DNA of 64,000 bases from Nitrospiria bacterium (GTDB lineage: Bacteria > Nitrospirota > Nitrospiria > JACQBZ01): assembly GCA_035517655.1 (NCBI GenBank), contig DATIYJ010000029.1, positions 18,230 through 82,229 of the forward strand. The letters run 5' to 3'. The notes beneath the pieces are model-generated. The model had not been told where the DNA came from and made no database searches. It worked only from the letters and a program-made list of their open reading frames with translations. Each line of letters opens with the position of its first letter. The first letter of the stretch is position 1. Both the position numbers and the translations under genes were made by a program. Below, piece by piece: positions 24,115 to 58,338 of the stretch.

Positions 24115-25539
24115 TTATCTGGATATCAAGAATTGATTAAATTTCTGTAAACTCCCGTTGAAGATCGCAAGAAGAGCGCGCGCGAGCCCTTTCAGCCGCT
24201 TCCGGAATCGCACGAGCCGGGATTGACGAAGCGTCATGGATTCCGTCAACCGCTCGATGCGGTCGGCCACATCGCCAAAACCGCGTTCCATGAATCGCAC
24301 CCGCTGAAAACAATCCAGAGCTTCTTCGATCTTCCCCTGCTCTTCCAGAACGCATCCCATTTCATAACGCACACGAATGACCTCCCGGCCGGGCGCGGAA
24401 TAATCCGACAAGGCTCTTCTGAATAATTTCAGGGCCTCGTCGCTTCGACCCGCCTCCCGGTGGCAAAGGCCGGCCAGGAACGAGGCCTTCATCCAATAGG
24501 CCGGGTCCTCCGCGGCTTTTTCAAAGAAGGGAACGGCCTCGTCCCGCCGGCCCGCTTCCTTCAATTCCATCCCTTTTTGGTAGGCCATGCCGGAAGCTTT
24601 TCCCGAAGCCTCGGCCGACCCGGACCGTTCCGACCGATGAGTCGGCCATTCGCCGTTCCCCTCCTGATCCCGAACCGGGCGCTCTCTTCCATTCAGAAAG
24701 GAGGTTAGACCGCTATCTTTGACAAAGGGAATGATTCTCCCCGCGATCCGGTCCGAAGCCGCCTCGGCCACCAGCCGGGCCGAAATCCTCTCGGCCTGTT
24801 CCGCGAATCCGTAAACAAGAGAACGTTCGCAGGCCTGATTGATCAAGCGAGGAACGCCCCCCGAAATGCGATAGATCAGGGAAAACGCCTCCTCTTCGAA
24901 CAGCGGAATTTCTCTCCCGGCGGTTTTCACGCGATGATGGATATACCGATCGGTTTCTTCCGCATTCATCGGTTCCAGGTGATACTCCGCGTCGATCCGC
25001 TGAGCGAACTGGATCATGTCGGACCGGCGCAAGAGATCCCGGAGGCCGGGCTGCCCGGAAAGAACGATCTGCAGAATCGGGTCCTTGCCGGAATTCATGT
25101 TCGACAACAGCCTCAGTTCCTCCAGCATGGAGGGTTCCAGATTCTGAGCCTCGTCCACGACCAGGACCACCCGGCGTTTCAGGGCATGTTCCCGGTCCAA
25201 GAACTCCGCAAATTTTCGGTGGACGGATGCCTGATCCCGGCTCCGGGGCCGCAGATTAAAGATCCCCATCATCCACGGCATCAGGCTCTGAAAGTTGCCA
25301 TGGGTGTTCGAGATCAGACCGATGGTGAGCTCCTGTCCGGCTTCGCCCATCATCTTGCGCAACAGCAGGCTTTTGCCGGTCCCGATCTCGCCGGTAATGA
25401 CGATGAACCCGGATCGATTAAAGAGGCCGTATTCCAACAAACTCAGAGCCGCGCGATGGTTGGAACTGCGGTAAAAGAACTCGGGATCCGGAATAAGAGA
25501 AAACGGTTTCTCGCGAAATCCGTAAAACGATTCGTACAT
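24115..25539 (-). CDS. ExeA/GspA-like AAA ATPase with C-terminal TPR domain (putative secretion ATPase of PEP-CTERM/exosortase loci)
   Basis: 474 aa. MYESFYGFREKPFSLIPDPEFFYRSSNHRAALSLLEYGL...ITGEIGTGKS (Walker A). VVLVVDEAQNL. TPR-like C-terminus. I recall a PEP-CTERM-locus ATPase TIGRFAM subfamily with this architecture. Confidence 0.8.
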   Translation of the reverse strand: MYESFYGFREKPFSLIPDPEFFYRSSNHRAALSLLEYGLFNRSGFIVITGEIGTGKSLLLRKMMGEAGQELTIGLISNTHGNFQSLMPWMMGIFNLRPRSRDQASVHRKFAEFLDREHALKRRVVLVVDEAQNLEPSMLEELRLLSNMNSGKDPILQIVLSGQPGLRDLLRRSDMIQFAQRIDAEYHLEPMNAEETDRYIHHRVKTAGREIPLFEEEAFSLIYRISGGVPRLINQACERSLVYGFAEQAERISARLVAEAASDRIAGRIIPFVKDSGLTSFLNGRERPVRDQEGNGEWPTHRSERSGSAEASGKASGMAYQKGMELKEAGRRDEAVPFFEKAAEDPAYWMKASFLAGLCHREAGRSDEALKLFRRALSDYSAPGREVIRVRYEMGCVLEEQGKIEEALDCFQRVRFMERGFGDVADRIERLTESMTLRQSRLVRFRKRLKGLARALLAIFNGSLQKFNQFLISR

Positions 25540-25599
25540 AATCCTCCTGACCTCGGGAACGCATGGATGGACAACCGGGCCACATCCCGTTGGTTGTTC

Positions 25600-26379
25600 C
25601 TAGCTTTTATTCAAGACCGTTCCGATCAAGGGAACTTCTTTGATCAGATGCAATGCTTTTTCGATTTCCTCCCTCTTGGTCCGCCCCGCCTCGACGACCA
25701 ACAACAAGGCGTCGAGGTAGGGAGAAAAGGCCAACACATCGGCCGACCGGAGGAGCGGGGGGAGATCGAAGAGGACCAGCCTTTCCGGGTAGCGGTGCTT
25801 TAACTCCGCCACCAGGGCGGTCATCTTCGGCGACGTGAGCCGTTCGGTCGAATCATGAATTTTCCGCCCCCCCGGGAGGAGAACGAGACGTCCGAGACCC
25901 GGATGGACCAGGAGCGACTCGACGGGAATATCGTCCAGCAGATATTCGGCCAGCCCCCGGTCCGGCCCGATTCCGAGGACGCCGTGCACGCCCGGGTTTC
26001 GCAAATCCGCGTCGACCAGGAGAACCGTCTGACCCGCCTCCATCGCCAGACTGATCGCCAGGTTGATCGCCGTCACCGTTTTCCCTTCGCCCTCTCCCGG
26101 ACTCGTCACCCCGAGCATACTCCAGCCGTTTTCCCGCATCCGATGAAGGACCTGTGTCCGAAGAATTTTATAGGCATGGACAAACTCGTTCTCTTCAAAG
26201 GCCGCGAGGATCCGCCGCTCCCGCATATGGGAGAGCGGCACCTCCACCGAACGCGTCCGGGTATAGATGATGCGTTCCGAGGATCTTACCGGCGAATACG
26301 GGGGGCCGGTAAGGGTCGAGGGCCCCTCTTTTTCTCGTTTCTCTTTCACTCGATCGAGTGCGAGCTGTATCTTGTCCAT
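25600..26379 (-). CDS. BY-kinase-like P-loop ATPase (exopolysaccharide tyrosine autokinase, MinD/ParA fold)
   Basis: ATG at 26379 (MDKIQLALDRVKEK). VTSPGEGEGKTVTAINLAISLA Walker A. VLLVDADLRNP Walker A'/B. RBS ggagtg. Confidence 0.8.
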   Translation of the reverse strand: MDKIQLALDRVKEKREKEGPSTLTGPPYSPVRSSERIIYTRTRSVEVPLSHMRERRILAAFEENEFVHAYKILRTQVLHRMRENGWSMLGVTSPGEGEGKTVTAINLAISLAMEAGQTVLLVDADLRNPGVHGVLGIGPDRGLAEYLLDDIPVESLLVHPGLGRLVLLPGGRKIHDSTERLTSPKMTALVAELKHRYPERLVLFDLPPLLRSADVLAFSPYLDALLLVVEAGRTKREEIEKALHLIKEVPLIGTVLNKS

Positions 26380-26395
26380 ATTCACTCCGATGCCT

Positions 26396-28141
26396 TTATC
26401 CGACCCCAAGCTTCCGCAGAACGACGAACCAGAGGACATCCAGGGGAACCCATAGGAGATGAATCGTCATCAACGAAATAACCAGAAGACCGATGCTTCC
26501 TCCGATCAGCCGTCTTTTGATCCGAAGGGACCGTTTCCGGTCTTCCGTATTGGGCATGTAGGGAATGACCGCCAGCGGGGGCGCCTGACTTACCGTGCCC
26601 AGCGTCTGCGCGGTATGGACGGAATGGTCGAGACTTTCCGCCGCCGCTCCGTAGCCGATGCCGCCGGCGGCGGCCAGCACGAGACTGAGAAAAACGATGA
26701 CGGGCCGTTTCGGCTTTTCCGGTTTTTCGGGAAGGGCCGGGGGATCGATCAGGGAAAAACGCTCCCCTTTGCGCTGGTCTTCCAAAACCTCCGAGACCTG
26801 GGCTTCCACCAATTTGGACCGGATCTCACGGTATTTCTCGACGGAGTTATCCCGGTCGCGGGTCAGGTCCAGGTACACCTGCTCGATCATGGGAGTTTCC
26901 TCCAGCCGATGCGAAAGTTCCTGGGCGCGGGCTTTCATTTCCGCCCGCGTGGCCTTCATCGCGTCCAAATCGTGTATGGCCGATGAAAGTTGGGATTGGG
27001 TCAGGATGTAGGCCGGGTTTTCGGGCGGAACCGCCGCCGGTTCTTCCGGCGTCGTCTTCGCCTGGGCGATCTCTTTTTCAAGGGAGGCGATGATCTTTCG
27101 GTAGCGGACGACATCGGGATGGTCTTCCCCATACCGCTCCAAAAGGCCGGACAGGTTCGCACGGGCGTCGGTGATCTGTTTGGAAAGTTCGTCCGCGTCG
27201 CTTCCCTTTCCGACCTCTTTCTCGAGCGCATCGATCTCCCGCTTCATCTTGATCACATCGGGATGCTGCGCCGATAAATAGGACGCGCTGCTCGCATACT
27301 GAGCCCGCAGGGCTTTAAGCCTTTCTTCCCGGTCCAGGATGCGTTCCCCGGAGGCGGTGATGATCGGCGTGTTGGGTTTCAGGGTCGCCAATTGTCCTTC
27401 GAGAGAAATCTTCTTTTCTTCGAGCGAACGGACTTGTTGATCCACATTGATCAGCTCCTGGTCGACCTGATTCAACAACTGCATGTTCAGCTGCGTCAGT
27501 TCGGGCAAGGCCCCCTGGGCGCGCTCCTTGAAGACCGAAATCTTTTTTTCCAGTTCCTTAATATGGCCGGAGAGTCGTTGGGCCTGGCCTTTGAGAAACA
27601 CCGTCGTTTCCTGGGCGTTGCGTTCACGGGTTTTCAGATTCTCGGACAAGAAAAGACTGGTCAGCTCGTTGGCGACCTTCTGGGCCAATTCCGGGGTTTC
27701 CCCGTCATACGCCAGGGTGAACGCGATGGTGGCGTGCGTCGGCTGGCCGGTGCGGCGGTCCACGACCTCCGCGCTGATCACCTCGATTTTGATGTCGTCC
27801 ACGAAACGCTCCAGCACGTCTTCCGTCGTGCTGCGCCGGCGCAGGCCGGAATAAAGCCCGTATTGTTCCACGATCTTCCAGAGGTTGGAGCGGGTCATGA
27901 CTTGGTGTTTGATGGTTTCGATGCGCTGATCGGCATAGCTGGTTACGGTGGATCGCACCAGATCCGTGGGGACCTCCTGTTCCTCGATCAGAATGGTGGC
28001 CGTGGAGCGATAGGCGGACGGCAAAAGGAACGCCACCAGGATGCCCAGGATAAAGAGCACCGCCGTGGGCGCTAAAATTTGAATTTTTCTCCTCTGAAAA
28101 AGGTCCAGATATTCTCGGAGGTCTTTCTTCTGATCATCCAT
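26396..28141 (-). CDS. Polysaccharide chain-length determinant (Wzz/GumC family, PEP-CTERM-locus type)
   Basis: 581 aa. N-terminal TM (ILAPTAVLFILGILVAFLLP). Long coiled-coil periplasmic region. C-terminal TM (PVIVFLSLVLAAAGGIGYGAAAE). Confidence 0.8.
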   Translation of the reverse strand: MDDQKKDLREYLDLFQRRKIQILAPTAVLFILGILVAFLLPSAYRSTATILIEEQEVPTDLVRSTVTSYADQRIETIKHQVMTRSNLWKIVEQYGLYSGLRRRSTTEDVLERFVDDIKIEVISAEVVDRRTGQPTHATIAFTLAYDGETPELAQKVANELTSLFLSENLKTRERNAQETTVFLKGQAQRLSGHIKELEKKISVFKERAQGALPELTQLNMQLLNQVDQELINVDQQVRSLEEKKISLEGQLATLKPNTPIITASGERILDREERLKALRAQYASSASYLSAQHPDVIKMKREIDALEKEVGKGSDADELSKQITDARANLSGLLERYGEDHPDVVRYRKIIASLEKEIAQAKTTPEEPAAVPPENPAYILTQSQLSSAIHDLDAMKATRAEMKARAQELSHRLEETPMIEQVYLDLTRDRDNSVEKYREIRSKLVEAQVSEVLEDQRKGERFSLIDPPALPEKPEKPKRPVIVFLSLVLAAAGGIGYGAAAESLDHSVHTAQTLGTVSQAPPLAVIPYMPNTEDRKRSLRIKRRLIGGSIGLLVISLMTIHLLWVPLDVLWFVVLRKLGVG

Positions 28142-28194: not shown

Positions 28195-29361
28195 TTACCG
28201 GGAAATCGCCATCCGAGGCCCGTTGTACGTCGTGATCAGAAAAACGGCATTGGAAATCGCCCGGCCGGGCGCGTTATAAACCGCCTGTTCGGCATAACGG
28301 TAAGAAACCCCCGAGGACCAGCGTTCGGCCCACTGCCAATCCCAGCGTTGCTCGATCTTATCGTAGCGGCTGTTCGGGACCAGCCGATCCGTCCGAAGCG
28401 GCCGGCTCAGGTAAGAGTCGACGGCCAAAGAGGCGGTCAGTTTTGTCGTCATCGTTTTTCTAAACAAAAAATTAAGATGATTGACTTCGACCAGGTATCC
28501 GATGCCGCTCGGGTGGGTTTCCCGGCTGAACCCGCTTTGAACATGGACGGTCTCGAATTCCTTCTCAAGATCGATCTGGCCCACCCATCCCCGTCCGCGA
28601 TCCCGCCGTTCGGAAAGGGTTGTTTGATAGATCGATGTCGTGCTGCGGATCCCCGCCGTCGCGTCCCCGTGAAACGTCTCGGAAAAACGATGCGTCAAAC
28701 CCGCCTTGGCGCCGTATTCCAACGACCGGAAGTCCGCCGTCAGCGCCTGGTAGGTCGAATAATAAGAACTCACGGTGGCTTGATCCCGCTCGGAGCTCTG
28801 GTACACCGCCTGGACCGTTCCCAGGTGGGTCTGGTAGTCGACCAGACTCGGACTCGCGTAAAGGGCGTCGGAGAAATCGTACTCGGCATGGAGCGTGAAA
28901 TTTTCAGTCAGGGAACCGATCCATTTGGGATTCAAGGTGAACAGGTCGCGTCGCGACCGATTGAGCACCTGGCCGGTTTCGATCAGTTCGCTCGTCAAGG
29001 TCAGATCGCGCGTGTACGAACTTTGTAATTCCAAGCTGTTTCGCTCCATTTGATAACGGCTTGAGACGGTGTAGTACTGATCGGTCGTGTCCAAATCCTT
29101 TTGTGTAAAATAGCGCGTGAGATTCACCAAAAGATTCCCTTGAAGCTCGAACGGCTCCGTGCGCACCCCGAGATTTAAACTTGGGGATAACGTGCTCCCC
29201 GTCGCCGGATGACGAACGGGAAGCAACAGGGGGTTATCGTCGTATGCCCCGTTCAGGCTCACCGAGGGTTCCATCGACCATTCGGCCGCGGCCGCCTCCT
29301 TAGAAAAAACAAGCAAAACCGCCAGAACCCATCCACCCGATCTTCTCCAGAGCGGCCGCAT
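28195..29361 (-). CDS. Putative outer-membrane beta-barrel protein associated with exosortase/EPS loci
   Basis: 388 aa. Signal peptide (AAAAEW). Alternating amphipathic beta-strand pattern rich in Y/T/S/L. I recall an uncharacterised PEP-CTERM-locus OMP family with this profile. Confidence 0.5.
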   Translation of the reverse strand: MRPLWRRSGGWVLAVLLVFSKEAAAAEWSMEPSVSLNGAYDDNPLLLPVRHPATGSTLSPSLNLGVRTEPFELQGNLLVNLTRYFTQKDLDTTDQYYTVSSRYQMERNSLELQSSYTRDLTLTSELIETGQVLNRSRRDLFTLNPKWIGSLTENFTLHAEYDFSDALYASPSLVDYQTHLGTVQAVYQSSERDQATVSSYYSTYQALTADFRSLEYGAKAGLTHRFSETFHGDATAGIRSTTSIYQTTLSERRDRGRGWVGQIDLEKEFETVHVQSGFSRETHPSGIGYLVEVNHLNFLFRKTMTTKLTASLAVDSYLSRPLRTDRLVPNSRYDKIEQRWDWQWAERWSSGVSYRYAEQAVYNAPGRAISNAVFLITTYNGPRMAISR

Positions 29362-29411: not shown

Positions 29412-29999
29412 TCACGGCACCACGATCACGTCCCCCCTTTGAAGGAGGATGTTCTGCTCCAAGTGCTTCCCTTTCTTGATGTCGCCGTAGCGGAAGGAAA
29501 AAGTCCGCTGCCCCCCCGGTTCCGAGTGGAGGACCTCGATCCCGTTTTCCGAGGCGAACGGCGTCATGCCCCCCGCCAGACTGAGGGCCTGCATGACATT
29601 GGTGTAATGACCGACCAGGTATTCCCCGGGGCGATTTACTTTTCCGACCACGTATATTTTATAGCTGTTCACCTTGGTCACGGCGACCGAGACGGTCGGG
29701 TCGGGGATGAACGGTGAAAGACGCTCCCGGATATCCTTTTGGAGTTCCTCGGCGGTCCTTCCCTCGGCCTGCACCTCCCCGATGAGCGGAAACGAAATCA
29801 TCCCGTCCGGCCGAACCAGCGCCTCCCGGGTCAGGCTTTCGTCCTTCCAAACGGAAATCTGCAGCACATCCTCCGGTCCCAGGCGGTACTCCGATTTTGC
29901 GGAAACCACCCCCGCATCCGATTCGGCGCCCGCCAGGATCGGAAGAAGGCTCAACGCCACCGATGCAACGATGACCCCTATGGTTTCCAGCCCTCTCAA
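29412..29999 (-). CDS. Polysaccharide export protein (Wza-like periplasmic/OM export, PES domain)
   Basis: 195 aa. Signal peptide. YRLGPEDVLQISVW...VRPDGMISFPLIGEVQAEGRTAEELQKDI...NSYKIYVVGKVNRPGEY is the Poly_export/SLBB signature. Confidence 0.8.
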   Translation of the reverse strand: MRGLETIGVIVASVALSLLPILAGAESDAGVVSAKSEYRLGPEDVLQISVWKDESLTREALVRPDGMISFPLIGEVQAEGRTAEELQKDIRERLSPFIPDPTVSVAVTKVNSYKIYVVGKVNRPGEYLVGHYTNVMQALSLAGGMTPFASENGIEVLHSEPGGQRTFSFRYGDIKKGKHLEQNILLQRGDVIVVP

Positions 30000-50434: not shown

Positions 50435-52359
50435 TCATCCCCCGTCGGAAAATCGTCGGCACCACATCTCCAGCACCAGGGCTTTGTACGACGGAGGAAC
50501 CACCGCCCCCAGCGCAAAAGGACCGTCGGACAATGTTCGCGCGGCCTCCGGCTTGAGCACGCCGGCCTGAACAAGATAGCCGTCGTGGAGAAGCGGGCCG
50601 TACTTGGCGAACAGGGCCCGGTGCCACTCGATGACCGGAGGATGGAACCCCCGCTTCCGGCGCCGGAGCACCCAGTCCGGCAAGATGCCCTTGAGGGCGG
50701 TCCTGAACCACGCTTTGGGCGGCAACTCATAATCGGTTTGTGCCTTGCGGAGTCCGATCACCGTTTCGACCAAGCGGTAATCGACGAGCGGGAGTCGGAG
50801 CTCGACCGAGGAGGCCATGCCGAGACGATCTCCCTGCGCCATGCCGTTTTCCAGAAGGTAGGTCGAACAGATCAACCGGGTCAGCAGGATGTCGGGACGC
50901 GGCCATGGTTGCGCGATCGTGAAGGGGTCGTACGGCGTTGCGGTTCCGAGCGACTCGACAAACGCGGGGGCATACCAATTTCGCATCTGGCGGCGCGCGA
51001 TGCGGAAATCCGGCGTCAGGTCGTAGAAGACCGCTTGATCGCGGCGGCTGTCCCGGTCACGAAGGAAGGATTCCCACGACGTTCGCAGACCGCCCGCCGA
51101 CGTGCCCCAATTCCACAACCCGCGCTTTGACCACGTCTGCGGAAGCCACTGCACCGAGAGATAGTCTTGGAATCTGCGTTGACCCATGGCCGGAACGGCG
51201 CCCTTGCGGAACGATTCTTTCGCCGCCTGAGCCGTCCAGGGATAGCCCCAGAACAGTTCGTCGCCTCCCTGCCCCTGGAGCATGACGGCTACCCCCGCCT
51301 GCCTCGCGGCGTTCATCACGGCGTAGTACCCGAAGCCGGAGAGGTCGGCGATCGGATCGTCACACCAATACACCAACTCCGGAAAGAACCGCACCATCCA
51401 GTCTTGGGTAATTTCAACTCCGTGAAACGGCAAGCCCAGGTGGTCCGCCAAGGCCTTCGCGTCGGCGCGCTCGTCGTGAAGGGGCTTTCCGGAATACCCG
51501 ATGCTGAAGGCGTGCATTTGACCGGGGTATTTCTTCGCGGCGACGGCCGCGATCGCGCTGGAGTCCAACCCGCCGCTGAGCGCGACGCCGACCGGCACAT
51601 CGGACCGCACGACGAGTTCGCCTACCGTTTCTAACTCGGCCCGGATCGCTTCGACCGGATCGCCGGAACGCGCCGCGATTTCGTCCATGCTCCAATACGC
51701 CGTCTCCTCGACCTTCCAAGGATCAAGGGCTACGGTCAACATATGGGCCGCCGGCAGTTTGCGGAGGTGTCGCAGAGCTGTCCGCGGTTCGGGGACGTAG
51801 TTAAAGTGGAAGAACAGATCGACGGCATGAGGGTCCAACTCAAACGGAAGCAATTTCGAGTTCAAAAGAGTCTTCAACTCGGAACCGAAGACCAGCATTT
51901 GGCGGTCGAGGAACAGGTACAGGGGTTTTTCCCCCATCCGGTCCCGGACGAGGATCAGGCGTCTTACTCGACCGTCCCACAAGGCGAACGAAAACATGCC
52001 CCGCAAGTGATGAACGCAGTCCCGGCCGTATTCCTCGTACAGGTGCACGATCACTTCGCAGTCGCTTCCCGTCGCGAACCGATGGCCTCGCGCCTGAAGC
52101 CGGGCGCGGAGCTCGACGTAATTGTAAATTTCTCCGTTGGCGATCACGGTCAGCGTCCCGTCTTCGTTGTGAAGCGGCTGCCATCCGCGGGCGACATCGA
52201 TGATGCTCAAGCGGCGCATCGCAAGAGCGACGTGCTTATCGTAGTAGTGCCCCTCGCCGTCGGGCCCACGGTGCACCATGGCCTTGCTCATGAGCGAGAC
52301 CCGTTCATAATGTTCCGGCCGGAGAGGGTCACGAGCAATCAACCCGGCTATGCCGCACA
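50435..52359 (-). CDS. asnB: Asparagine synthase (glutamine-hydrolysing) family amidotransferase (AsnB-like, EPS-locus type)
   Basis: ATG at 52359 gives MCGIAG (N-terminal nucleophile Cys). SGGLDSS PP-loop. Confidence 0.85.
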
Positions 52360-52429
52360 TGACATTTTCCTCATGCTCAGGACAACGGCTCGATGCTTCC
52401 AAACATCCCTTGGATCTTTCTCTCTCCTC

Positions 52430-53734
52430 CTAAACGGGGAGAGAATGAGTTTGCCGCCGGACCCGGGGAAATCGGAGCCGGTCGAAGCCGGCCGCCGCCG
52501 GCCGGGCGCCCGACCCGGCCCGGGGCAACGCGGTCGCGCCTTTTTCCGTTTGCCTCAAGCTCATGGCAAAGATCGCGATATACCAATACAGCACTCCGGA
52601 GTACATGGCGGCGGAAAAAATAACGGTTTCACCCACATTCGAAAGGCTCATAAAAATTAAGACATACAGTTCCGCCCCGTATTGTCTCGCCGTGTCCCGC
52701 TTAAACAGCGCCCATAAGGCATAGCCGATAATCGCAACGTACAGGAAGGCGCCCAACGCGCCCGAATCAAGCAATGCCTGGATAAAACCGTCGTGGAGCG
52801 TCGGAGTGAATGATCGTTGATGTTGCGCATCCGTGCCGGGTGCCTTCATAACCTTCAGTCCCTGCGCTTCGTTGTCGAACGCATCCGCCCCGATTGTAAA
52901 TCCGTAGCCTAAAAAAGGCCTGTTCCAGAACTTGGCAAGAGCGACATTCCATATGGTCACTCTTCCCGACAGATTTGTTATGGACTTTTCCCGCAAAATC
53001 TGTGATTCCTCTTTCGATGAAATACGAAGATCGGCCGCCGCCATCATCAACGGCAAGATCGCCGCGAAGATAATCGTAGCCGTCGTCCATGTCCGCTTAT
53101 GCTTAAAATAGAAAGCGGCGGTGACGCACAACGCCACGACCGCGGCCACCCAAAAAGTCCTGGATCCGGTCAGATAGAGACATGGAAGAGAGACGAACAG
53201 CCCCGCAATACGAAGCGGCCAATTCCATCGGCCCAGCACGGATAAACCGAACAGGATGCCCGATGCCGCCCCCATCATGGCGGCTTTGCCGAACAGACCG
53301 TTGAATCGATATCCCTCCCGGGTTGATTCATAGACCCATTGAGGCCGATCATAGGCCAGGATCAAACTGGCCAGACAGACCGCTGTGAACACCAGCGCCG
53401 TCATCATCAGGGCCGCCTTATTTTTATGAATCTCCTTCCGCTGTGTCTCGATGTACGCGATGAAAAACAAGATCGTGGCGATCAGCGACGAGGTCTGAAC
53501 AACGACATAGAGCGGCCTCCGTGAAACGACCGACGTCAGAAGCAAAAGCGCCAGATAGGCAAAGACCAGGGCATATCGCTTAGGGAGGTCCGCACTCCCC
53601 CATGTCATGAGCCAGTATAATCCGACCATCAATGCCGGTCCCTCGGAGATGCCGCGCAACACATAACTGTCTCCAAAAGGCAATACATCTTTTCCGACAA
53701 GAGCGATCACCAAGAGCGCAAAAACATATCCCAT
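52430..53734 (-). CDS. O-antigen ligase/polymerase-like (Wzy_C) membrane protein
   Basis: 434 aa. Ten or more TM helices with a central periplasmic loop. Wzy_C-like profile. I recall a similar exosortase-associated O-glycosylation ligase family. Confidence 0.7.
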   Translation of the reverse strand: MGYVFALLVIALVGKDVLPFGDSYVLRGISEGPALMVGLYWLMTWGSADLPKRYALVFAYLALLLLTSVVSRRPLYVVVQTSSLIATILFFIAYIETQRKEIHKNKAALMMTALVFTAVCLASLILAYDRPQWVYESTREGYRFNGLFGKAAMMGAASGILFGLSVLGRWNWPLRIAGLFVSLPCLYLTGSRTFWVAAVVALCVTAAFYFKHKRTWTTATIIFAAILPLMMAAADLRISSKEESQILREKSITNLSGRVTIWNVALAKFWNRPFLGYGFTIGADAFDNEAQGLKVMKAPGTDAQHQRSFTPTLHDGFIQALLDSGALGAFLYVAIIGYALWALFKRDTARQYGAELYVLIFMSLSNVGETVIFSAAMYSGVLYWYIAIFAMSLRQTEKGATALPRAGSGARPAAAGFDRLRFPRVRRQTHSLPV

Positions 53735-54084: not shown

Positions 54085-54792
54085 TCATTTTGAGCGCATC
54101 CTGCCGGTCTTTGTGACCCCTCTTAGACGGACCAGCATCCGAGACAACGAACGATGGTGTAGGAATCCGAACCATCCCGTGAGGCCGGTGACGAAGAGCC
54201 ACGCGGCGCCCGGGAGGGGGACCGAGGATACCGGGCTCACTTGGCCGCTCAGAACGATATCGACGCTGCCTCCGGTCGTCCCCGTGATCTCTCCGGAGAA
54301 AGAGGCGGGAACAGTGCCGGAGAGGCTCCCGCTAAAGAAACCGCCCGGTTGAAATTGAAAGGGATTGCTCGAACCGCCAAGAACATCGCCGCTGCCGGGA
54401 GCATCCGTCACCGATGGATCGGGAATTGAAATCGACGCCGGCGGATAGTAGGATGGGAGGAGATCCATGGCATGCGGTTTCGAAAATAACACATCGGCAA
54501 AGATCGGCCCGAAGTTTTCCTTTTCCCACCGGCCGACCGCGAATCCGTTGGACGAGAACGGGATATAAAACAGACCTTCGCTCATGCTTTCTTGTTTTCG
54601 GAGGAGCGGATCCATCAATTCCTGGGGGGTTTCAAGATCCCCGGCGACCGCGATCCATCCCCATCCGGACGGACTCGGGCGAACCACCTGGACGAGGGAG
54701 GCCTCGGCCATCTGGACCGACAGGATCGATAAAGCCGCCGCGCAGACCAGAAATTTGAGAGGCATACAACAGCGTTTCTTGGCGATGCGCAT
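54085..54792 (-). CDS. PEP-CTERM-type (VPLP variant) exosortase cargo protein with unusually long basic tail
   Basis: Signal peptide. C-terminus ...SSVPLPGAAWLFVTGLTGWFGFLHHRSLSRMLVRLRGVTKTGRMRSK (VPLP motif, TM helix, basic residues). Confidence 0.7.
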   Translation of the reverse strand: MRIAKKRCCMPLKFLVCAAALSILSVQMAEASLVQVVRPSPSGWGWIAVAGDLETPQELMDPLLRKQESMSEGLFYIPFSSNGFAVGRWEKENFGPIFADVLFSKPHAMDLLPSYYPPASISIPDPSVTDAPGSGDVLGGSSNPFQFQPGGFFSGSLSGTVPASFSGEITGTTGGSVDIVLSGQVSPVSSVPLPGAAWLFVTGLTGWFGFLHHRSLSRMLVRLRGVTKTGRMRSK

Positions 54793-54795: not shown

Positions 54796-55395
54796 TTACG
54801 AGAGATCGGTCAAAATCCGACCCGACCCTCCCCAACCCAACAAGGCCAGGGCCAAGATCCCCGTCGCAAAGAGTCCCAAGGCTGCGGGAAGAGGGACGGG
54901 AGCGACTTCCGTGGTGCCCTGCAGGTTCATCGTGAAGGAGGAAACATCCACATAAACATGTTGCCACGAAAGGCTGAATTGCCCGGTATTGGGATCGTAG
55001 GTGCCGGTCGCCAAACCGCCGATGTTCAAGGTCGCATTGATCACGGGTCCCGCAATTCCGGCAAACAGGGACGAGAGGTCCGCCGTCACCGTTGTTCCGG
55101 AGATCTGCGCGGACGGCGGAGCGTACAGTCCGCCGGAGGAAGCGGTGAAGATCGAGAAAGTGTGTCCGTCGATCGGAATCGGCGGAAAGATGTCCGGCGG
55201 AGGCTGGAATTGCCCCATCGCCAGCGTTCCGTTCTGTGTAAAGTTTCCGGAGAGAGAACCGAAGGCCCCTAAATTCAACGAGAGGCTCCCGCCGGTAATG
55301 TCCAACTGCGACACCGTATCCGCGTGAGCGGCGGCGCCGCAGAAATAAAAAAGAAGACCCACAAATGAAACGATCAGTATTTTTTGGAGTTTCAT
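54796..55395 (-). CDS. PEP-CTERM-type (VPLP variant) exosortase cargo protein
   Basis: Start MKLQKILIVSFVGLLFYF. C-terminus ...APVPLPAALGLFATGILALALLGWGGSGR. Confidence 0.75.
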   Translation of the reverse strand: MKLQKILIVSFVGLLFYFCGAAAHADTVSQLDITGGSLSLNLGAFGSLSGNFTQNGTLAMGQFQPPPDIFPPIPIDGHTFSIFTASSGGLYAPPSAQISGTTVTADLSSLFAGIAGPVINATLNIGGLATGTYDPNTGQFSLSWQHVYVDVSSFTMNLQGTTEVAPVPLPAALGLFATGILALALLGWGGSGRILTDLS

Positions 55396-55450: not shown

Positions 55451-56071
55451 TTATCCAAATAGCCTTTGCCAACTCATGCCGACAAAGCCGACCAAACCCG
55501 TAGCGAACATCAACAGGGAGGTCGGAATCGGGACCGGCGCCGGCGCCATGCCGTCATAGGGATTCACGGCAAAGGTCAGCGTTATTCCCGCGTCTTGCAG
55601 AGGATTAAACCCGTTTCCGTTCAAATCCCACTCGATGGCCAGCGTGTTGTAATACGTATAAGCCACTTGTGGATTGACGGAATGAGACGGATCGATCGGA
55701 TTCAAATAAACCTGATTGGCATAATCCGCCGGGTCGGAGATTGTGTAGATCGTACTCGTCTGGTCATTTCGCAACGCAAAATTCACCAAAGAACCGCCTG
55801 AAAACGTGTATTGCCCATACAGGGAAGCGGGACCATTGGGCGCCAGGGCGATCGGTGTAAACCCGCTGCCGTCTACAAACCCAAAGTCATACATCGGAAC
55901 CGGCAGGGTGAGGTCAATATTAAACGTCGCATCCCCGCTGTTATGATCGGTCCCGTCGATCATCAGCACAAGACCCGGGTTGTTCACAACCAAGTCCGCC
56001 GACGCCTGACCCGGCGGGATGCCCCACAGGACGCCTACCAGCAAAGCCAGTAAAGCCATCTTGTTTTTCAT
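55451..56071 (-). CDS. PEP-CTERM-type (VPIP variant) exosortase cargo protein
   Basis: Signal MKNKMALLALLVGVLWG. C-terminus ...APAPVPIPTSLLMFATGLVGFVGMSWQRLFG. Confidence 0.75.
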   Translation of the reverse strand: MKNKMALLALLVGVLWGIPPGQASADLVVNNPGLVLMIDGTDHNSGDATFNIDLTLPVPMYDFGFVDGSGFTPIALAPNGPASLYGQYTFSGGSLVNFALRNDQTSTIYTISDPADYANQVYLNPIDPSHSVNPQVAYTYYNTLAIEWDLNGNGFNPLQDAGITLTFAVNPYDGMAPAPVPIPTSLLMFATGLVGFVGMSWQRLFG

Positions 56072-56158: not shown

Positions 56159-57535
56159 TTACTGAGCGCAGGGATGCGCACCGGCCTTCCACTGCACCGG
56201 GCCCGCATCCGCATTCTTGAAGGTATACATGTCGGAGCCCGCGACCCAGAAGGCCCCGGCCGGCAGAAGCGCGACCGTGGCCGACGATGACGCGTTCGTG
56301 ACAAAATCGGACATCAACGCGGTCTGATCCGCCGAGATGCCCGGGTCCGAGTAGTTCCTTACGTTCAAGCGTTCCCCGGCCCAGTAGAGGTACATACCGC
56401 AACGGACGTTCATCTTATGATCGGGCAGGGAAGCGTCGTTTGCAAAAAGGCCGTCGAGTTTGATCGGGTACGCAGGAGCCGTAACCACGCTCACGTCGGC
56501 ATCTACGTAGCCGATGCCCCTCGGATGAGCCGGCCGGCCCAAGCCCGCGTTTCCTCTCATGCAGTCCTGGACATCCTGAGTGCTTTGTCCGAAGTAGACT
56601 CCATCGGCCGCGAGGGTCAGATTCGTCGACCCGCTTGGGGTCTCGGTGGCGTCTTTCATGACGGTTTGATCAAGCGCCGCCTTGGAACCGGATCCCGCCG
56701 CGCGAAGACAGAGGGTGATCGGCGAGGTCGCATCCGGAGTGCCGGGCGTGGTCACGTCCGTCACCAGACCGACTTGAGACCAGTCGGTGACGTTCCGGCT
56801 GAAGATCGCCTCGATTTCGGTACGGTTCAAGCCCGTCACGGGCACCAGAACTCCGCCGACGTTTTTCTTGACATGCTCTCCCACGATGAACTGCCACGGC
56901 ACGATCGCCGCCTGGTTGCTGGTCAGCATGCTCTGGTCCAACGGCTTCACGACCGTGGTGATCGGCCCGACTTGGCCGAAGGAACTTCCGGCCACGTCCG
57001 CCGCCCCCATGGTCACCGGAAGATCTCCCGCGACGATCGTATTGCAGCCGGTGTATTCATAATACTGTTTGCCGTCGGCGGCCCGGGTCAAGAGGTTCGG
57101 TCCCGATGTGCAGGTGCTCGCAAGGTGATCCAGATAGTGCATGTACGAATGCGCCGTGTCGGATGTCGGATTCTGAAGTTTCAGGATCCCATCGGAAGAG
57201 CCCGTGGCCGAGTACCGGATGATGGTCGGCACGCCGGCCCGCGATCCGGTCCAGACATGGAGTTTGCCGGATGTGATGACCGGGCTTGCAATGTCACCGT
57301 TTACGTAATGAATCGGAAGATTTGGGGCCTGGTCCAGCAGGTTTAATGGAACCTGCGTCATGAACGGTGTGGCCGCGGAAGATCCGCCGGCATTTAACGC
57401 AACGCACGAGGTGGGTTGCGGTCCTGTACATTGCTCGACCTGGGCCGACGCCGGCGAGGCGTTCATCCAAAGAAGGCCGGCGAGCAAGCCGCCTACAACG
57501 GCCAGTTTGTTCAATTTCATCGGTTTCATCTGCAT
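56159..57535 (-). CDS. Secreted protein with PstS-like (periplasmic phosphate-binding, PBP-like_2) domain, embedded among cargo genes
   Basis: 458 aa. Signal peptide. NAGGSSAATPF and ATGSSDGILKL resemble PstS GSS/GSG phosphate-binding loops. No PEP-CTERM tail. Confidence 0.5.
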   Translation of the reverse strand: MQMKPMKLNKLAVVGGLLAGLLWMNASPASAQVEQCTGPQPTSCVALNAGGSSAATPFMTQVPLNLLDQAPNLPIHYVNGDIASPVITSGKLHVWTGSRAGVPTIIRYSATGSSDGILKLQNPTSDTAHSYMHYLDHLASTCTSGPNLLTRAADGKQYYEYTGCNTIVAGDLPVTMGAADVAGSSFGQVGPITTVVKPLDQSMLTSNQAAIVPWQFIVGEHVKKNVGGVLVPVTGLNRTEIEAIFSRNVTDWSQVGLVTDVTTPGTPDATSPITLCLRAAGSGSKAALDQTVMKDATETPSGSTNLTLAADGVYFGQSTQDVQDCMRGNAGLGRPAHPRGIGYVDADVSVVTAPAYPIKLDGLFANDASLPDHKMNVRCGMYLYWAGERLNVRNYSDPGISADQTALMSDFVTNASSSATVALLPAGAFWVAGSDMYTFKNADAGPVQWKAGAHPCAQ

Positions 57536-57597
57536 TTCTCCTTTTTAGTTTATTGAACCCTTTTTGATGGCTCGTTATGTTTTAATGGTTGAACGTT

Positions 57598-58338
57598 TTA
57601 GACGGACATCAGATTGCGACGGGCCACACCCACCAGCCCGACCAAACCCGTGCCGAACAACACCATGGCGGCCGGGATCGGCACCGGAGCAATCGCATTC
57701 CCGGAGATCGTAAGCAAGCCGCCCGCCGTCAACGTCGCATGTCCCAGCTGGGCGATGGCATCGGAAGAATAATCCGCCGAAATAATGCCCAAAGTGCCCC
57801 CGAGCCCCGTCTGCATGGAGACCGGGAAACTGCCGGCCAGCGTGCCGCTCGTACCGAAATTGCTTGTGAACGAATTGGGGTCCGAAGCGGGAAGAAGCTT
57901 CGAGGAAAGTCCGTCTCCTGAACTGAGCGCGGCCCAAACGGCGTCCGTGTTCCAGGCGTTCTGCGGAGCCACTTGCGACAACTGGGCCGCCGTGTAGGCG
58001 CTGGCGTCCTGGCTCGACCCGGCCACAAGATAGGTCGGATCACCCGTGCTCGGATTATAGTAAAAACCGATCAAGGCCCAAGCCGGAGAATTCGTCCCTT
58101 GTATCGCGGACATGGTGGAAGAATCGATGGTAAAGTTCGTCGACGCTCCCGGTGTGAGCAACGGAGTGGCCGCGCCGATATTGTCGATGAACTCGGTGTT
58201 ATTGCCGAAGACGGCCAAGACCAGGTCGCCGTTATTGATATCAACGGCGAGGGCTTTTCCGTTAAAGCCCGCAACGAACATGACAGCCAAGGTAAAAATC
58301 CCGAGGACTGTTTGTTTCAACTTCGTTTTGTAATTCAT
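57598..58338 (-). CDS. PEP-CTERM-type (VPIP variant) exosortase cargo protein
   Basis: Signal MNYKTKLKQTVLGIFTLAVMFVAG. C-terminus ...IAPVPIPAAMVLFGTGLVGLVGVARRNLMSV. RBS aaggag. Confidence 0.75.
   Translation of the reverse strand: MNYKTKLKQTVLGIFTLAVMFVAGFNGKALAVDINNGDLVLAVFGNNTEFIDNIGAATPLLTPGASTNFTIDSSTMSAIQGTNSPAWALIGFYYNPSTGDPTYLVAGSSQDASAYTAAQLSQVAPQNAWNTDAVWAALSSGDGLSSKLLPASDPNSFTSNFGTSGTLAGSFPVSMQTGLGGTLGIISADYSSDAIAQLGHATLTAGGLLTISGNAIAPVPIPAAMVLFGTGLVGLVGVARRNLMSV

What the first reader, a model, noticed from the sequence alone, without database searches (positions are those of the whole stretch)
24115..58338. Complete exosortase-dependent EPS/protein-sorting locus whose cargo carries VP[LI]P rather than VPEP signals
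This ~34 kb one-strand cluster encodes the full regulatory and export set known from PEP-CTERM/exosortase systems. That set is the ExeA-like ATPase, BY-kinase, Wzz, OM barrel, Wza, PrsT-like TPR lipoprotein, priming transferase, exosortase, GT26, GT4 x3, GT2, Wzx, AsnB and Wzy/O-ligase. It also has four tandem cargo genes. All four cargo tails use VPLP or VPIP plus a TM helix and a short basic tail. This matches the VPLPA-CTERM variant that I recall is served by a dedicated exosortase subtype (XrtD). The exosortase here is fused to EpsI, which is normally a separate neighbouring gene.
Basis: partly seen in the sequence, partly recalled or inferred. Interest (0 to 1): 0.6.

Follow-up and report, generated by a model that had tools for sequence, protein, structure and literature searches.

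The report
Known XrtD exosortase polysaccharide locus
This 34 kb gene cluster from an uncultured Nitrospirota bacterium is an ordinary, already annotated example of the XrtD exosortase system, which makes a surface polysaccharide and probably sorts a few secreted proteins that end in a VP(L/I)P signal.

Summary
Window 24115-58338 is a single minus-strand cluster for exopolysaccharide synthesis and protein sorting.

- **Exosortase.** It scores 547.6 bits on the curated XrtD model (cut-off 400). It scores 196.8 on XrtA, below that cut-off of 208.
- **EpsI fusion.** The fusion is typical of the family. The XrtD model covers it, all 120 top homologues have it, and such fusions were described in 2006.
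- **Cargo tails.** All four have a signal peptide and a VP[LI]P + helix tail. Only one reaches the curated VPLPA-CTERM cut-off. With a tail model built from other contigs, the four are the top 4 of 551 window ORFs, and their orthologues keep the motif.
- **Already annotated.** GenBank names these same proteins "VPLPA-CTERM-specific exosortase XrtD" and, for cargo 1, "VPLPA-CTERM sorting domain-containing protein".

- There are two GT4 genes, not three.
- The cargo run is interrupted by a PstS-like gene.
- Seven further genes were not listed.

The "OM barrel" is a confident 18-strand barrel. It probably pairs with the short OPX protein, as in the EpsX/EpsY translocon.

Small new points are a conserved cassette (cargo, rare PBP-like protein, more cargo) and a conserved tandem promoter-leader next to an OmpR/PhoB-type regulator.

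Interest is low.

The parts
57598..58338 (-). Cargo 1, 246 aa. Signal peptide, and tail APVPIPAAMVLFGTGLVGLVGVARRNLMSV.
   Evidence: TIGR03370 scores 29.5 bits on the isolated tail and 23.9 on the full protein, cut-off 25.35. An identical protein is named 'VPLPA-CTERM sorting domain-containing protein' in NCBI. Of 45 homologues, 44 keep a [VAI]P[IVL]P tail, nearly all VP[IVL]PA; the most distant has VPEPA. Lineage tail HMM 53.6 bits.
56159..57535 (-). PBP/PstS-like secreted protein, 458 aa, with a signal peptide and no sorting tail. It is a conserved member of the cargo cassette.
   Evidence: PF12849 35.5 bits. A profile against the PDB finds only weak PstS matches (E 0.017), but the R-x-x-G-S-G-[ST] loop is kept. 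In 13 of 17 metagenome loci it is directly preceded by a VPxP-tailed gene. Only 174 50%-identity clusters match among 1.84 billion.
55451..56071 (-). Cargo 2, 206 aa. Signal peptide, and tail APVPIPTSLLMFATGLVGFVGMSWQRLFG.
   Evidence: TIGR03370 13.8 bits and PF07589 17.3 bits, both below cut-off. Lineage tail HMM 27.8 bits. Orthologues with the same tail are in L090, L091 and L095. NCBI calls it 'hypothetical protein'.
54796..55395 (-). Cargo 3, 199 aa from the ATG. Signal peptide, and tail APVPLPAALGLFATGILALALLGWGGSGRILTDLS.
   Evidence: TIGR03370 14.5 bits. Lineage tail HMM 19.2 bits. Orthologues at 46-63% identity in L082, L083 and L085 keep VPLPAA. The source gene call is 199 aa.
54085..54792 (-). 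Cargo 4, 235 aa. Signal peptide, and tail SSVPLPGAAWLFVTGLTGWFGFLHHRSLSR... with a long basic extension.
   Evidence: TIGR03370 12.7 bits. Lineage tail HMM 22.6 bits. The L083 orthologue keeps VPLPGAAWLF; the L082 one has VPLPSVGWLF.
52430..53734 (-). Wzy / O-antigen-ligase-family polymerase.
   Evidence: PF04932 Wzy_C 69.5 bits.
50435..52402 (-). AsnB-like glutamine amidotransferase.
   Evidence: TIGR01536 412 bits. TIGR03108 (XrtA-system amidotransferase) 393.7, below its cut-off of 816.9. Pfam hits.
49220..50407 (-). GT4-type glycosyltransferase.
   Evidence: PF00534 and PF13439.
47605..49233 (-). Wzx flippase (MOP superfamily).
   Evidence: PF01943 90.4 bits, plus PF13440 and MatE.
46738..47598 (-). 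GT2 glycosyltransferase.
   Evidence: PF00535 105 bits.
45958..46656 (-). SAM-dependent methyltransferase.
   Evidence: PF08241 38.7 bits.
44713..45855 (-). GHL10 glycoside-hydrolase-like protein.
   Evidence: PF02638 90.2 bits. A TAT_signal match is weak (14.8 bits, cut-off 22.7).
43442..44614 (-). GT4-type glycosyltransferase.
   Evidence: PF00534 118 bits. NF041876 EpsE 121 bits.
42081..43445 (-). DUF362 protein, 454 aa by the source's gene call.
   Evidence: PF04015 96.6 bits. Gene call.
40744..42084 (-). CapK / F390-synthetase-like adenylate-forming enzyme.
   Evidence: NF045666 110.5 bits and TIGR02304 68 bits. Precomputed PF27533 CapK_C.
38334..40526 (-). Fusion of a Zn-ADH-like domain and a Gfo/Idh/MocA oxidoreductase.
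   Evidence: PF00107 and PF01408.
36393..38333 (-). Heparinase II/III-like (alginate-lyase family) protein.
   Evidence: PF07940 155.8 bits and PF16889 67.8 bits.
35708..36442 (-). GT26 (WecG/TagA/CpsF) glycosyltransferase.
   Evidence: TIGR00696 178.6 bits.
34096..35697 (-). XrtD exosortase with a fused C-terminal EpsI domain, 533 aa.
   Evidence: TIGR04152 547.6 bits (cut-off 400), matching residues 42-532 to profile positions 3-486. PF09721 and PF11984. C192-x-G, N234-x-x-R237 and H258-x-x-x-G262 are invariant in 12 homologues. An identical protein, HUK56197.1, is named XrtD.
32456..34093 (-). WecA/MraY-family polyprenyl-phosphate HexNAc-1-P transferase (priming enzyme) with an extra C-terminal membrane region.
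   Evidence: TIGR02380 168.8 bits over residues 9-330. PF00953 133.8 bits.
30022..32409 (-). PrsT-type TPR lipoprotein.
   Evidence: TIGR02917 335.1 bits, cut-off 312.2. A homologue lies next to the fused exosortase in 41 of 44 full-length related loci.
29412..29999 (-). Short OPX protein, 195 aa, with D1 and D2 domains only.
   Evidence: Poly_export plus one SLBB domain. TIGR03027 141.5 bits (below 180) and EpsY NF041843 111.8 bits.
28195..29361 (-). 18-strand outer-membrane beta-barrel, the likely partner of the short OPX.
   Evidence: AF2 pLDDT 89.6, pTM 0.82, 18 long strands. Foldseek against the PDB finds OccK/OprD porins and AlgE, with query TM-score up to 0.56. Distant homologues carry PF13505 and PF10082.
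26396..28141 (-). Polysaccharide co-polymerase (Wzz / chain-length determinant).
   Evidence: TIGR03007 260.2 bits, below its cut-off of 278.85. PF02706 and PF13807.
25600..26439 (-). BY-kinase-like P-loop ATPase. It has no C-terminal tyrosine cluster.
   Evidence: TIGR03018 186.7 bits, below its cut-off of 230.65. There is no Tyr in the last 40 residues (sequence).
24115..25539 (-). ExeA-like AAA ATPase with a C-terminal TPR extension.
   Evidence: TIGR03015 279.8 bits, below its cut-off of 324.5, over residues 1-261. TPR region at 317-419.
58393..58749 (-). Two tandem copies of a 121-nt promoter-leader element (58393-58513 and 58629-58749) upstream of cargo 1.
   Evidence: 93% identical to each other. 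The same tandem pair occurs in L088, L091/L095 and L092. The 5' 30 nt are nearly invariant and are followed by TGAGATAAT. The proximal leader folds with z = -5.8.
59120..59827 (+). Divergent OmpR/PhoB-family response regulator. It is a candidate regulator of the cargo cassette; this is inferred.
   Evidence: Best hit TIGR02154 PhoB at 219.7 bits, below its cut-off of 296.2. It is conserved divergently upstream of cargo 1 in L087, L088, L091 and L095.

Best explanation
This is an XrtD-type exosortase system embedded in a Wzx/Wzy-dependent exopolysaccharide locus of an uncultured Nitrospirota (class Nitrospiria) bacterium.

**Polysaccharide route (inferred from family assignments).**
1. A WecA-type transferase primes undecaprenyl phosphate with a HexNAc-1-phosphate.
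2. GT26, two GT4 and one GT2 enzymes build the repeat unit.
3. The unit is modified by the oxidoreductase fusion, the heparinase-like protein, the methyltransferase, the AsnB-like amidotransferase and the CapK-like adenylating enzyme.
4. Wzx flips the unit across the inner membrane.
5. Wzy polymerises it under control of a split co-polymerase plus a BY-kinase-like ATPase.
6. The polymer leaves through a composite translocon made of the short D1D2 OPX protein and the adjacent 18-strand beta-barrel.

**Protein-sorting route (inferred by analogy with the PEP-CTERM/exosortase model).**
1. The four small secreted proteins cross the inner membrane by Sec.
2. They stay tethered by their C-terminal VP[LI]P + helix + basic tail.
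3. XrtD recognises the tail at the periplasmic face. XrtD carries the Cys-x-Gly, Asn-x-x-Arg and His-x-x-x-Gly motifs.
4. XrtD cleaves the tail and passes the protein on, probably towards the polysaccharide layer.

Shown here: gene content, family assignments, motif conservation, the barrel fold, and conservation of synteny and tails in relatives.
Not shown: any catalytic step, the cleavage site, and the acceptor.
For: - XrtD HMM scores 547.6 bits (cut-off 400); XrtA and XrtW fall below their cut-offs.
- The exosortase motifs described by Haft 2006 are invariant in 12 homologues.
- The EpsI domain is fused in all 120 top homologues.
- The identical proteins are named XrtD and VPLPA-CTERM protein by NCBI.
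- The four tails are the top 4 of 551 ORF C-termini under a tail HMM trained only on other contigs: 53.6, 27.8, 22.6 and 19.2 bits, against 4.5 for the next ORF.
- In 50 related tails, the residue between the two prolines is L 22, V 18, I 8, T 1, Q 1 and never E (recount).
- Orthologous cassettes in L082, L083, L085 and 13 metagenome loci keep the VPxP tails.
- The four cargo proteins share detectable similarity mainly in their tails; cargo 1 and 4 give one further weak hit, E 0.002.
- Every Wzx/Wzy pathway component was recovered by HMM.
- The barrel model has pLDDT 89.6 and 18 strands and resembles AlgE. This mirrors the EpsX/EpsY translocon (PMC9601211).
- Synteny from GHL10 to the kinase is kept in Ca. 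Manganitrophus (L002). PrsT, ATPase, kinase, Wza and Wzz homologues flank related fused exosortases in 27-41 of 44 loci.
Against: - Three of the four tails score only 12.7-14.5 bits on the curated VPLPA-CTERM model (cut-off 25.35). Two of them are annotated as hypothetical proteins in NCBI.
- Cargo 3 lacks a clear basic cluster, and cargo 4 has an atypically long basic extension.
- The ATPase, kinase, chain-length, export and amidotransferase proteins all score below the XrtA-system equivalog cut-offs. They are paralogous versions, and their roles are assumed by analogy.
- The kinase-like protein has no tyrosine cluster.
- As far as I know, no XrtD enzyme has been studied experimentally, and a literature search for 'XrtD' returned nothing relevant. 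The sorting mechanism is therefore inference from the PEP-CTERM model.
- The rest of the genome was not examined.
Confidence: 0.85

Rival explanations
1. It is a canonical XrtA/PEP-CTERM system, and the VP[LI]P tails are just degenerate PEP-CTERM signals.
For: The neighbourhood looks like an XrtA locus. PrsT passes its cut-off (335.1 against 312.2). The ATPase, kinase, chain-length and export proteins have XrtA-system models as their best hits. Tails 1 and 2 give weak PF07589 PEP-CTERM scores of 18.6 and 17.3 bits.
Against: XrtA scores 196.8 bits, below its cut-off of 208 and far below the XrtD score of 547.6. There is no Glu in any of the 4 local tails or the 50 related tails. No PrsK or PrsR is present. 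The window has no match to the sigma-54 consensus TGGCAC-N5-TTGC at one mismatch or fewer. The accessory proteins fall below the XrtA equivalog cut-offs.
Confidence: 0.03
2. The exosortase belongs to another fused subtype, such as XrtW, with a different cognate signal.
For: XrtW (NF038142) aligns end to end at 336.4 bits. Fused relatives at 30-40% identity in Acidobacteriota sit near PEP-type tails.
Against: 336.4 bits is below the XrtW cut-off of 425 and 211 bits below the XrtD score. The nearest named homologues (Ca. Manganitrophus, Nitrospira) are all annotated XrtD. The linked tails are of VPLPA type.
Confidence: 0.02
3. The tails of cargo 2-4, or of all four, are plain C-terminal membrane anchors that XrtD does not process. 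Polysaccharide synthesis and protein sorting are co-located but independent.
For: Three tails fail the curated model. Their basic regions are atypical. There is no experimental evidence for XrtD processing. The cargo genes lie 19-23 kb from xrtD. Within 10 kb of 80 related exosortase genes, only four tailed ORFs were found.
Against: The VPxP motif is kept in orthologues while the rest of the proteins diverge to 37-63% identity. The tail is the main similarity the four proteins share. They score far above every other ORF on an independently trained tail model. The cassette sits at the head of the same strand-continuous locus in at least four lineages.
Confidence: 0.1

Closest known systems
XrtD / VPLPA-CTERM exosortase system (NCBIfam TIGR04152 with TIGR03370)
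   Same: The exosortase passes the curated cut-off over its full length, including the EpsI part. The catalytic motifs are present. Cargo 1 matches VPLPA-CTERM, and the other tails have the same VPxP + helix layout. NCBI gives these very proteins the same names.
   Different: Three of the four local tails fall below the curated signal cut-off. This lineage's tails are VP[LVI]P-A/G/T with a characteristic LFGTGL helix. The cargo genes form a cassette with a PBP-like gene, and no curated NCBIfam model covers that gene.
XrtA / PEP-CTERM / EpsH system (Haft et al. 2006, PMC1569441)
   Same: It has the same overall logic. A multi-pass Cys/Arg/His exosortase sits inside an EPS locus. A PrsT-type TPR lipoprotein, an ExeA-like ATPase, a split PCP and kinase, a short export protein, an AsnB-like amidotransferase and a CapK-like enzyme are all present. 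Cargo proteins have a signal peptide plus a C-terminal motif, helix and basic tail.
   Different: The signal has L/I/V in place of Glu. The exosortase fails the XrtA cut-off. No PrsK/PrsR or sigma-54 site was found in the window. Instead, an OmpR/PhoB-type regulator and a sigma-70-like extended -10 element lie upstream of the cargo. The cargo genes form an operon-like run rather than single-gene units.
Composite D1D2-OPX / 18-strand beta-barrel translocon (EpsY/EpsX of Myxococcus xanthus; PMC9601211)
   Same: A short 195-aa OPX protein with only Poly_export and one SLBB domain lies next to a signal-peptide-bearing 18-strand barrel. The barrel's best TM-scores among solved structures are to AlgE. 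EpsY is among the OPX protein's best NCBIfam hits.
   Different: The barrel has no detectable sequence match to any curated family. No interaction was modelled or tested here.

Membership tests
XrtD (VPLPA-CTERM-specific exosortase, TIGR04152) | Full-length score above the curated cut-off, and higher than for every other exosortase subtype | tested here: met
   547.6 bits against a cut-off of 400. Next best are XrtW at 336.4 (cut-off 425) and XrtA at 196.8 (cut-off 208).
XrtD (VPLPA-CTERM-specific exosortase, TIGR04152) | Exosortase catalytic motifs Cys-x-Gly, Asn-x-x-Arg and His-x-x-x-Gly | tested here: met
   C192-S-G194, N234-G-F-R237 and H258-S-F-S-G262 are invariant across 12 homologues of 52-68% identity. 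The motifs are those given in PMC1569441.
XrtD (VPLPA-CTERM-specific exosortase, TIGR04152) | C-terminal EpsI (DUF3485) domain fused to the exosortase | tested here: met
   TIGR02914 162 bits over residues 356-530, and PF11984 213 bits. The fusion is present in all 120 listed homologues.
XrtD (VPLPA-CTERM-specific exosortase, TIGR04152) | Cognate proteins with a VPLPA-CTERM signal (TIGR03370) in the same genome | tested here: met
   Cargo 1 scores 29.5 bits as an isolated tail (cut-off 25.35), and NCBI names it a VPLPA-CTERM protein.
VPLPA-CTERM sorting domain (TIGR03370): cargo 2, 3 and 4 | Score at or above the curated cut-off of 25.35 bits | tested here: not met
   13.8, 14.5 and 12.7 bits. 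They do score 27.8, 19.2 and 22.6 bits on a tail HMM built from other contigs, where the best non-cargo ORF scores 4.5. They work like VPLPA-CTERM tails but fail the curated model.
XrtD / VPLPA-CTERM system | XrtD-dependent cleavage of the tail and relocation of the cargo | not testable with these tools
   This needs genetics and C-terminal proteomics.
XrtD / VPLPA-CTERM system | Multiple cargo genome-wide, and no competing exosortase or signal type | not testable with these tools
   Only 64 kb plus about 20 kb of flanks of the 139 kb contig could be read. No further tails were found there.
XrtA / PEP-CTERM system | Exosortase above the XrtA cut-off | tested here: not met
   196.8 bits, below 208.
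XrtA / PEP-CTERM system | Near-invariant Pro-Glu-Pro in the cargo tails | tested here: not met
   0 of 4 local tails and 0 of 50 related tails have Glu between the prolines.
XrtA / PEP-CTERM system | PrsK/PrsR two-component pair and a sigma-54 site upstream of cargo (proteobacterial systems) | tested here: not met
   There is no match to TGGCAC-N5-TTGC at one mismatch or fewer in the window. The only nearby regulator is of OmpR/PhoB type.
XrtA / PEP-CTERM system | PrsT TPR lipoprotein | tested here: met
   TIGR02917 335.1 bits against a cut-off of 312.2.
[quoted passage not shown] | Priming transferase, Wzx, Wzy and PCP all present | tested here: met
   PF00953, PF01943, PF04932 and PF02706+PF13807.
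[quoted passage not shown] | OPX protein lacking the D3/D4 outer-membrane-spanning part | tested here: met
   It is 195 aa, with Poly_export at residues 34-108 and a single SLBB at 114-194.
[quoted passage not shown] | Adjacent 18-strand outer-membrane beta-barrel resembling AlgE | tested here: met
   AF2 pLDDT 89.6 with 18 long strands. AlgE query TM-score 0.53-0.56.
[quoted passage not shown] | Physical OPX-barrel complex | not tested
   No multimer prediction was available.
BY-kinase (bacterial tyrosine autokinase) | C-terminal tyrosine-rich cluster | tested here: not met
   The last 40 residues contain no Tyr (sequence). Walker motifs are present. TIGR03018 scores 186.7 bits, below its cut-off of 230.65.

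The most novel reading that the evidence does not exclude
In this Nitrospirota lineage the XrtD cargo is not a loose set of genes. It is a conserved cassette with this order: VPLPA-tailed protein, a rare PstS-like PBP-fold protein without a tail, then one to three further VPLPA-tailed proteins.

The PBP-like family has about 174 clusters at 50% identity among 1.84 billion proteins. It also occurs fused to a subtilase.

In the closest relatives the cassette is preceded by a conserved tandem pair of promoter-leader elements, next to a divergent OmpR/PhoB-type response regulator.

The novel reading is that the PBP-like protein is an obligatory, so far unrecognised partner of the XrtD cargo. It could, for example, bind an anionic group of the polysaccharide and so act as the docking or acceptor site. 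The regulator would then control the cassette through the TTCAT direct repeats.
Probability: 0.2. Interest if true: 0.45.

Novelty: already known. Interest (0 to 1): 0.2.

Why it matters
As it stands, it matters little. The XrtD/VPLPA-CTERM pairing is a curated family, the fusion to EpsI is its normal form, and GenBank already labels these proteins accordingly.

The analysis has three practical uses:
- It shows that the curated VPLPA-CTERM model misses three of the four linked cargo tails in this lineage. Cargo counts for Nitrospirota are therefore probably underestimates.
- It shows that the XrtD locus uses the recently described short-OPX plus beta-barrel export route.
- It points to a conserved cargo/PBP-like cassette with its own regulator. 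That cassette could be a compact starting point for the first experimental test of any XrtD system.

Tried and rejected
- **Literature.** A search for 'XrtD' returned only unrelated papers. 'VPLPA-CTERM' returned one unrelated mention. The 2012 exosortase/archaeosortase paper I tried to open (PMC3256604) is not held.
- **Sigma-54 site.** A search for TGGCAC-N5-TTGC at one mismatch or fewer gave 0 matches, against 2.7 expected by chance.
- **Rfam.** At gathering thresholds only a tRNA was found, and nothing at the leader element.
- **Full-length cargo scans.** Whole cargo proteins against Pfam and NCBIfam missed most tail matches. Scanning isolated tails was needed.
- **Tails near related exosortases.** Within 10 kb of 80 related exosortase genes only four tailed ORFs were found, all of PEP type and all in distant Acidobacteriota or Rokubacteria loci. 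The cargo lies further away, so this test was uninformative for XrtD.
- **PDB sequence search with the barrel.** No meaningful hit.
- **AlphaFold2 of the PBP-like protein from a single sequence.** It failed (pLDDT 33), so no fold search was run on it.
- **PhoB assignment of the regulator.** PhoB is the best hit, but at 219.7 bits it is below the cut-off of 296.2 and close to CreB, RpaB and MtrA. No specific assignment was made.
- **A mini-ORF after the distal leader copy.** None has a start codon at proper spacing from the SD-like motif in any lineage.
- **ORF 8722-9129 (+).** Its VPEP-containing end passed the crude motif screen. It lies opposite a CARDB-domain gene and was not among the top scores in the tail-HMM scan. 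I took it as chance.

Full report
**Source and layout**

The window is part of an ENA metagenome contig, ERZ27256617:k141_4122353, 139 kb long. Identical proteins are deposited in GenBank for a MAG called "Nitrospiria bacterium". The closest named relatives of the exosortase are Ca. Manganitrophus at about 66% identity and Nitrospira at about 56%.

All genes of the finding lie on the minus strand between 24115 and 58338. The ORFs I picked agree with the gene calls recorded for the source contig.

**The exosortase**

The 533-aa product of 34096-35697 scores as follows against NCBIfam:

| Model | Score (bits) | Curated cut-off |
|---|---|---|
| TIGR04152, VPLPA-CTERM-specific exosortase XrtD | 547.6 | 400 |
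| XrtW | 336.4 | 425 |
| XrtA | 196.8 | 208 |

The XrtD match aligns residues 42-532 to profile positions 3-486 of 486. So the profile itself includes the C-terminal EpsI part.

- Pfam finds Exosortase_EpsH (246 bits) followed by DUF3485/EpsI (213 bits).
- All 120 best database homologues carry both domains, and many are already named XrtD by NCBI or JGI.
- Haft et al. 2006 already reported that a number of EpsH proteins carry a fused EpsI-like region (PMC1569441).
- The three motifs that paper gives as invariant in the family are Cys-x-Gly, Asn-x-x-Arg and His-x-x-x-Gly. Here they are C192-S-G, N234-G-F-R237 and H258-S-F-S-G262, and they are invariant in an alignment of 12 homologues.

The fusion is therefore real, but it is the normal form of this family and not a peculiarity of this locus.

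**The cargo**

- 57598-58338
- 55451-56071
- 54796-55395
- 54085-54792

A crude six-frame motif screen of the window found only these four. It also picked up one ORF opposite a CARDB gene, which I took as chance.

Scores against the curated models, using isolated tails:

| Cargo | TIGR03370 VPLPA-CTERM (cut-off 25.35) | Other |
|---|---|---|
| 1 | 29.5 (23.9 within the full protein) | PF07589 18.6 |
| 2 | 13.8 | PEP-CTERM TIGR02595 14.1; PF07589 17.3 |
| 3 | 14.5 | PF07589 11.9 |
| 4 | 12.7 | none |

VPLPA-CTERM is the best signal-domain model for tails 1, 3 and 4. For tail 2 it scores about the same as PEP-CTERM. NCBI's annotation mirrors this: cargo 1 is named a VPLPA-CTERM protein, while cargo 2 and cargo 4 are "hypothetical".

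To test the three weak tails independently, I collected 50 non-redundant tails from other contigs. These came from cargo-1 homologues of 54% identity or less and from cassettes in L082, L083, L085, L092 and L096-L102. I built an HMM from them and scored the C-termini of all 551 window ORFs of 60 aa or more.
- The four cargo tails take the top four places, at 53.6, 27.8, 22.6 and 19.2 bits (E from 4.5e-16 to 2.6e-5).
- The next ORF scores 4.5 bits (E = 1).
- In the 50 training tails, the residue between the two prolines is L 22, V 18, I 8, T 1 and Q 1. It is never E.

One caveat applies. The training tails were selected with a motif rule, so this shows membership of a lineage tail family. It is not an unbiased discovery.

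Three further points support the tails as a shared module:
- Orthologues of cargo 1, 3 and 4 in L082, L083 and L085 keep the motif while the protein bodies diverge to 37-69% identity. Orthologues of cargo 2 in L090, L091 and L095 do the same.
- The four proteins resemble each other mainly in their tails.
- Of 45 cargo-1 homologues, 44 end in a [VAI]P[IVL]P tail, nearly all VP[IVL]PA-(A/V)VLFGTGLVGLVGVARR. Only the most distant one has VPEPA.

**The polysaccharide genes**

HMM searches confirm the following:
- ExeA-like ATPase with an added TPR tail
- BY-kinase-like P-loop protein
- PCP/Wzz
- short OPX
- TPR lipoprotein that passes the PrsT cut-off (335.1 against 312.2)
- WecA-type priming enzyme
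- GT26
- two GT4-type enzymes
- one GT2
- Wzx
- AsnB-like amidotransferase
- Wzy_C protein

- a heparinase II/III-like protein
- an ADH_zinc + Gfo/Idh/MocA fusion
- a CapK-like adenylating enzyme
- a DUF362 protein
- a GHL10 protein
- a methyltransferase
- a PBP-like gene among the cargo genes

The ATPase, kinase, chain-length, export and amidotransferase proteins have XrtA-system models as their best or near-best hits. All of them fall below the curated cut-offs. This is what one expects from paralogous, XrtD-linked versions.

The kinase-like protein has no tyrosine in its last 40 residues.

**The outer-membrane route**

The 388-aa protein between Wzz and the OPX protein matches no curated family and no PDB sequence. 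With an alignment of 15 homologues, AlphaFold2 gives a confident model: pLDDT 89.6, pTM 0.82. It has a signal-peptide helix and 18 long strands. Foldseek against the PDB finds 18-strand porins of the OccK/OprD family, and it finds AlgE with the highest query TM-scores, 0.53-0.56.

The OPX protein is only 195 aa, with Poly_export plus one SLBB domain. Myxococcus EpsY is among its best NCBIfam hits.

This matches the composite D1D2-OPX / 18-strand barrel translocon described for EpsY/EpsX. The closest solved structure for EpsX is also AlgE (PMC9601211). The complex itself was not modelled here.

**Comparison with related loci**

- In Ca. Manganitrophus (L002) the order from GHL10 through GT4, oxidoreductase, heparinase-like, GT26, XrtD, WecA-like, PrsT, OPX, barrel and Wzz to the kinase is preserved.
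- Among 44 related loci with full flanks, homologues lie next to the fused exosortase at these counts: PrsT 41, kinase 32, OPX 31, ATPase 30 and Wzz 27.
- The more distant loci (30-40% identity; Acidobacteriota, Desulfobacterales) may belong to sister subtypes.

**Regulation**

No PrsK or PrsR is present, and the window has no match to a sigma-54 -24/-12 consensus.

Upstream of cargo 1 lie two tandem copies of a 121-nt element, at 58393-58513 and 58629-58749. They are 93% identical to each other.
- The same tandem pair occurs in L088, L091/L095 and L092. A single copy occurs in L082.
- The first 30 nt are nearly invariant (TTAACTTCATTTTATTTCrTCTTGATCGG). They are followed by TGAGATAAT, which looks like an extended -10.
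- The downstream part is less conserved. It keeps a hairpin in which four pairs show double changes.
- The proximal leader folds with z = -5.8.
- The distal copy ends in an SD-like AAAGGAAAGGAGG with no ORF after it.

A divergent OmpR/PhoB-family response regulator (59120-59827) is conserved at the same place in L087, L088, L091 and L095. That it binds the TTCAT repeats is my inference and was not tested.

**The PBP-like gene**

The 458-aa protein between cargo 1 and cargo 2 has a signal peptide and no tail. Its only family hit is PBP_like_2 at 35.5 bits.
- A profile of five orthologues finds only weak PstS matches in the PDB (E 0.017), over a stretch that keeps the R-x-x-G-S-G-[ST] loop.
- It is the best conserved gene of the cassette: 78%, 55% and 49-51% identity in L082, L085 and L083.
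- In a metagenome scan, 13 of 17 loci that encode a relative have a VPxP-tailed gene directly upstream. Where the contig continues, one or two more lie downstream.
- The family is small. Among 1.84 billion representatives, 174 match at E of 1e-3 or better and 45 at 1e-30 or better.
- In L094 the same module forms the C-terminal domain of a subtilase encoded between TpsB and TpsA.

I read it as a secreted binding module tied to this cargo set. Its ligand is unknown. A single-sequence structure prediction failed.

**Verdict**

The system is a known, curated kind, and these very proteins are already labelled as such in GenBank. The finding is therefore ordinary.

Three things could not be done:
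- the genome-wide cargo count
- the search for a second exosortase
- any test of processing

Noticed in passing
window 58393-58513 and 58629-58749 (minus strand); also L088:2227-2347 and 2455-2575, L095:1142-1252 and 1330-1446, L092:417-517 and 599-701: A tandem pair of 121-nt promoter-leader elements lies upstream of cargo 1 and is conserved as a pair in at least four lineages. The first 30 nt are nearly invariant and contain TTCAT direct repeats. TGAGATAAT follows, then a GGA-rich structured leader. The distal copy ends in an SD-like motif with no ORF. There is no Rfam match.
   Followed up: partly
window 59120-59827 (+): An orphan OmpR/PhoB-family response regulator is transcribed divergently from the cargo cassette. 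Its best hit is PhoB, below the cut-off, and no histidine kinase lies next to it. It is conserved at the same position in L087, L088, L091 and L095.
   Followed up: partly
window 59920-61860 (+): A 646-aa predicted lipoprotein (lipobox LNSC) has no Pfam hit even at E <= 10. NCBI annotates it as hypothetical.
   Followed up: no
window 16012-23499 (minus strand); L085:1677-9778: A two-partner secretion pair (TpsB 21742-23499, TpsA 17992-21738) is followed by ExbB/TolQ (17120-17902) and TonB (16012-16656). It sits directly downstream of the ATPase gene on the same strand. The same TPS + ExbB/ExbD/TonB block lies directly upstream of the cargo cassette in L085, so it is a recurrent neighbour of these XrtD loci.
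   Followed up: partly
L094:4222-7257 (+): In a related contig, a 1011-aa protein joins a Peptidase_S8 subtilase domain to a C-terminal copy of the PBP-like module (58% identical to the window protein). It is encoded between TpsB and TpsA.
   Followed up: partly
window 25600-26439 (minus strand): The BY-kinase-like protein has Walker motifs but no tyrosine in its last 40 residues. It may be an ATPase or pseudokinase rather than an autokinase.
   Followed up: no
window 23496-24050 (minus strand): A 184-aa predicted lipoprotein with no family hit lies between the ATPase and TpsB. Homologues hold the same position in L093, L094 and L103.
   Followed up: no
window 62279-63226 (minus strand) and 62084-62155: A chlorite-dismutase-family (HemQ-like) protein has an N-terminal PCP_red-like domain. 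A tRNA-Met gene lies next to it.
   Followed up: no
L011 (JAUWMC010000086.1): A 2.8 kb contig binned as 'Candidatus Micrarchaeota archaeon' encodes a fused exosortase 37% identical to the query. This is probably a binning contaminant.
   Followed up: no
L083:4832-9744: In one related contig the cargo cassette is preceded by phosphate-scavenging genes: PhoX, a metallophosphatase/5'-nucleotidase and a low-molecular-weight phosphatase. Together with the PstS-like gene and the PhoB-like regulator, this could hint at control by phosphate. It was seen in only one lineage.
   Followed up: no
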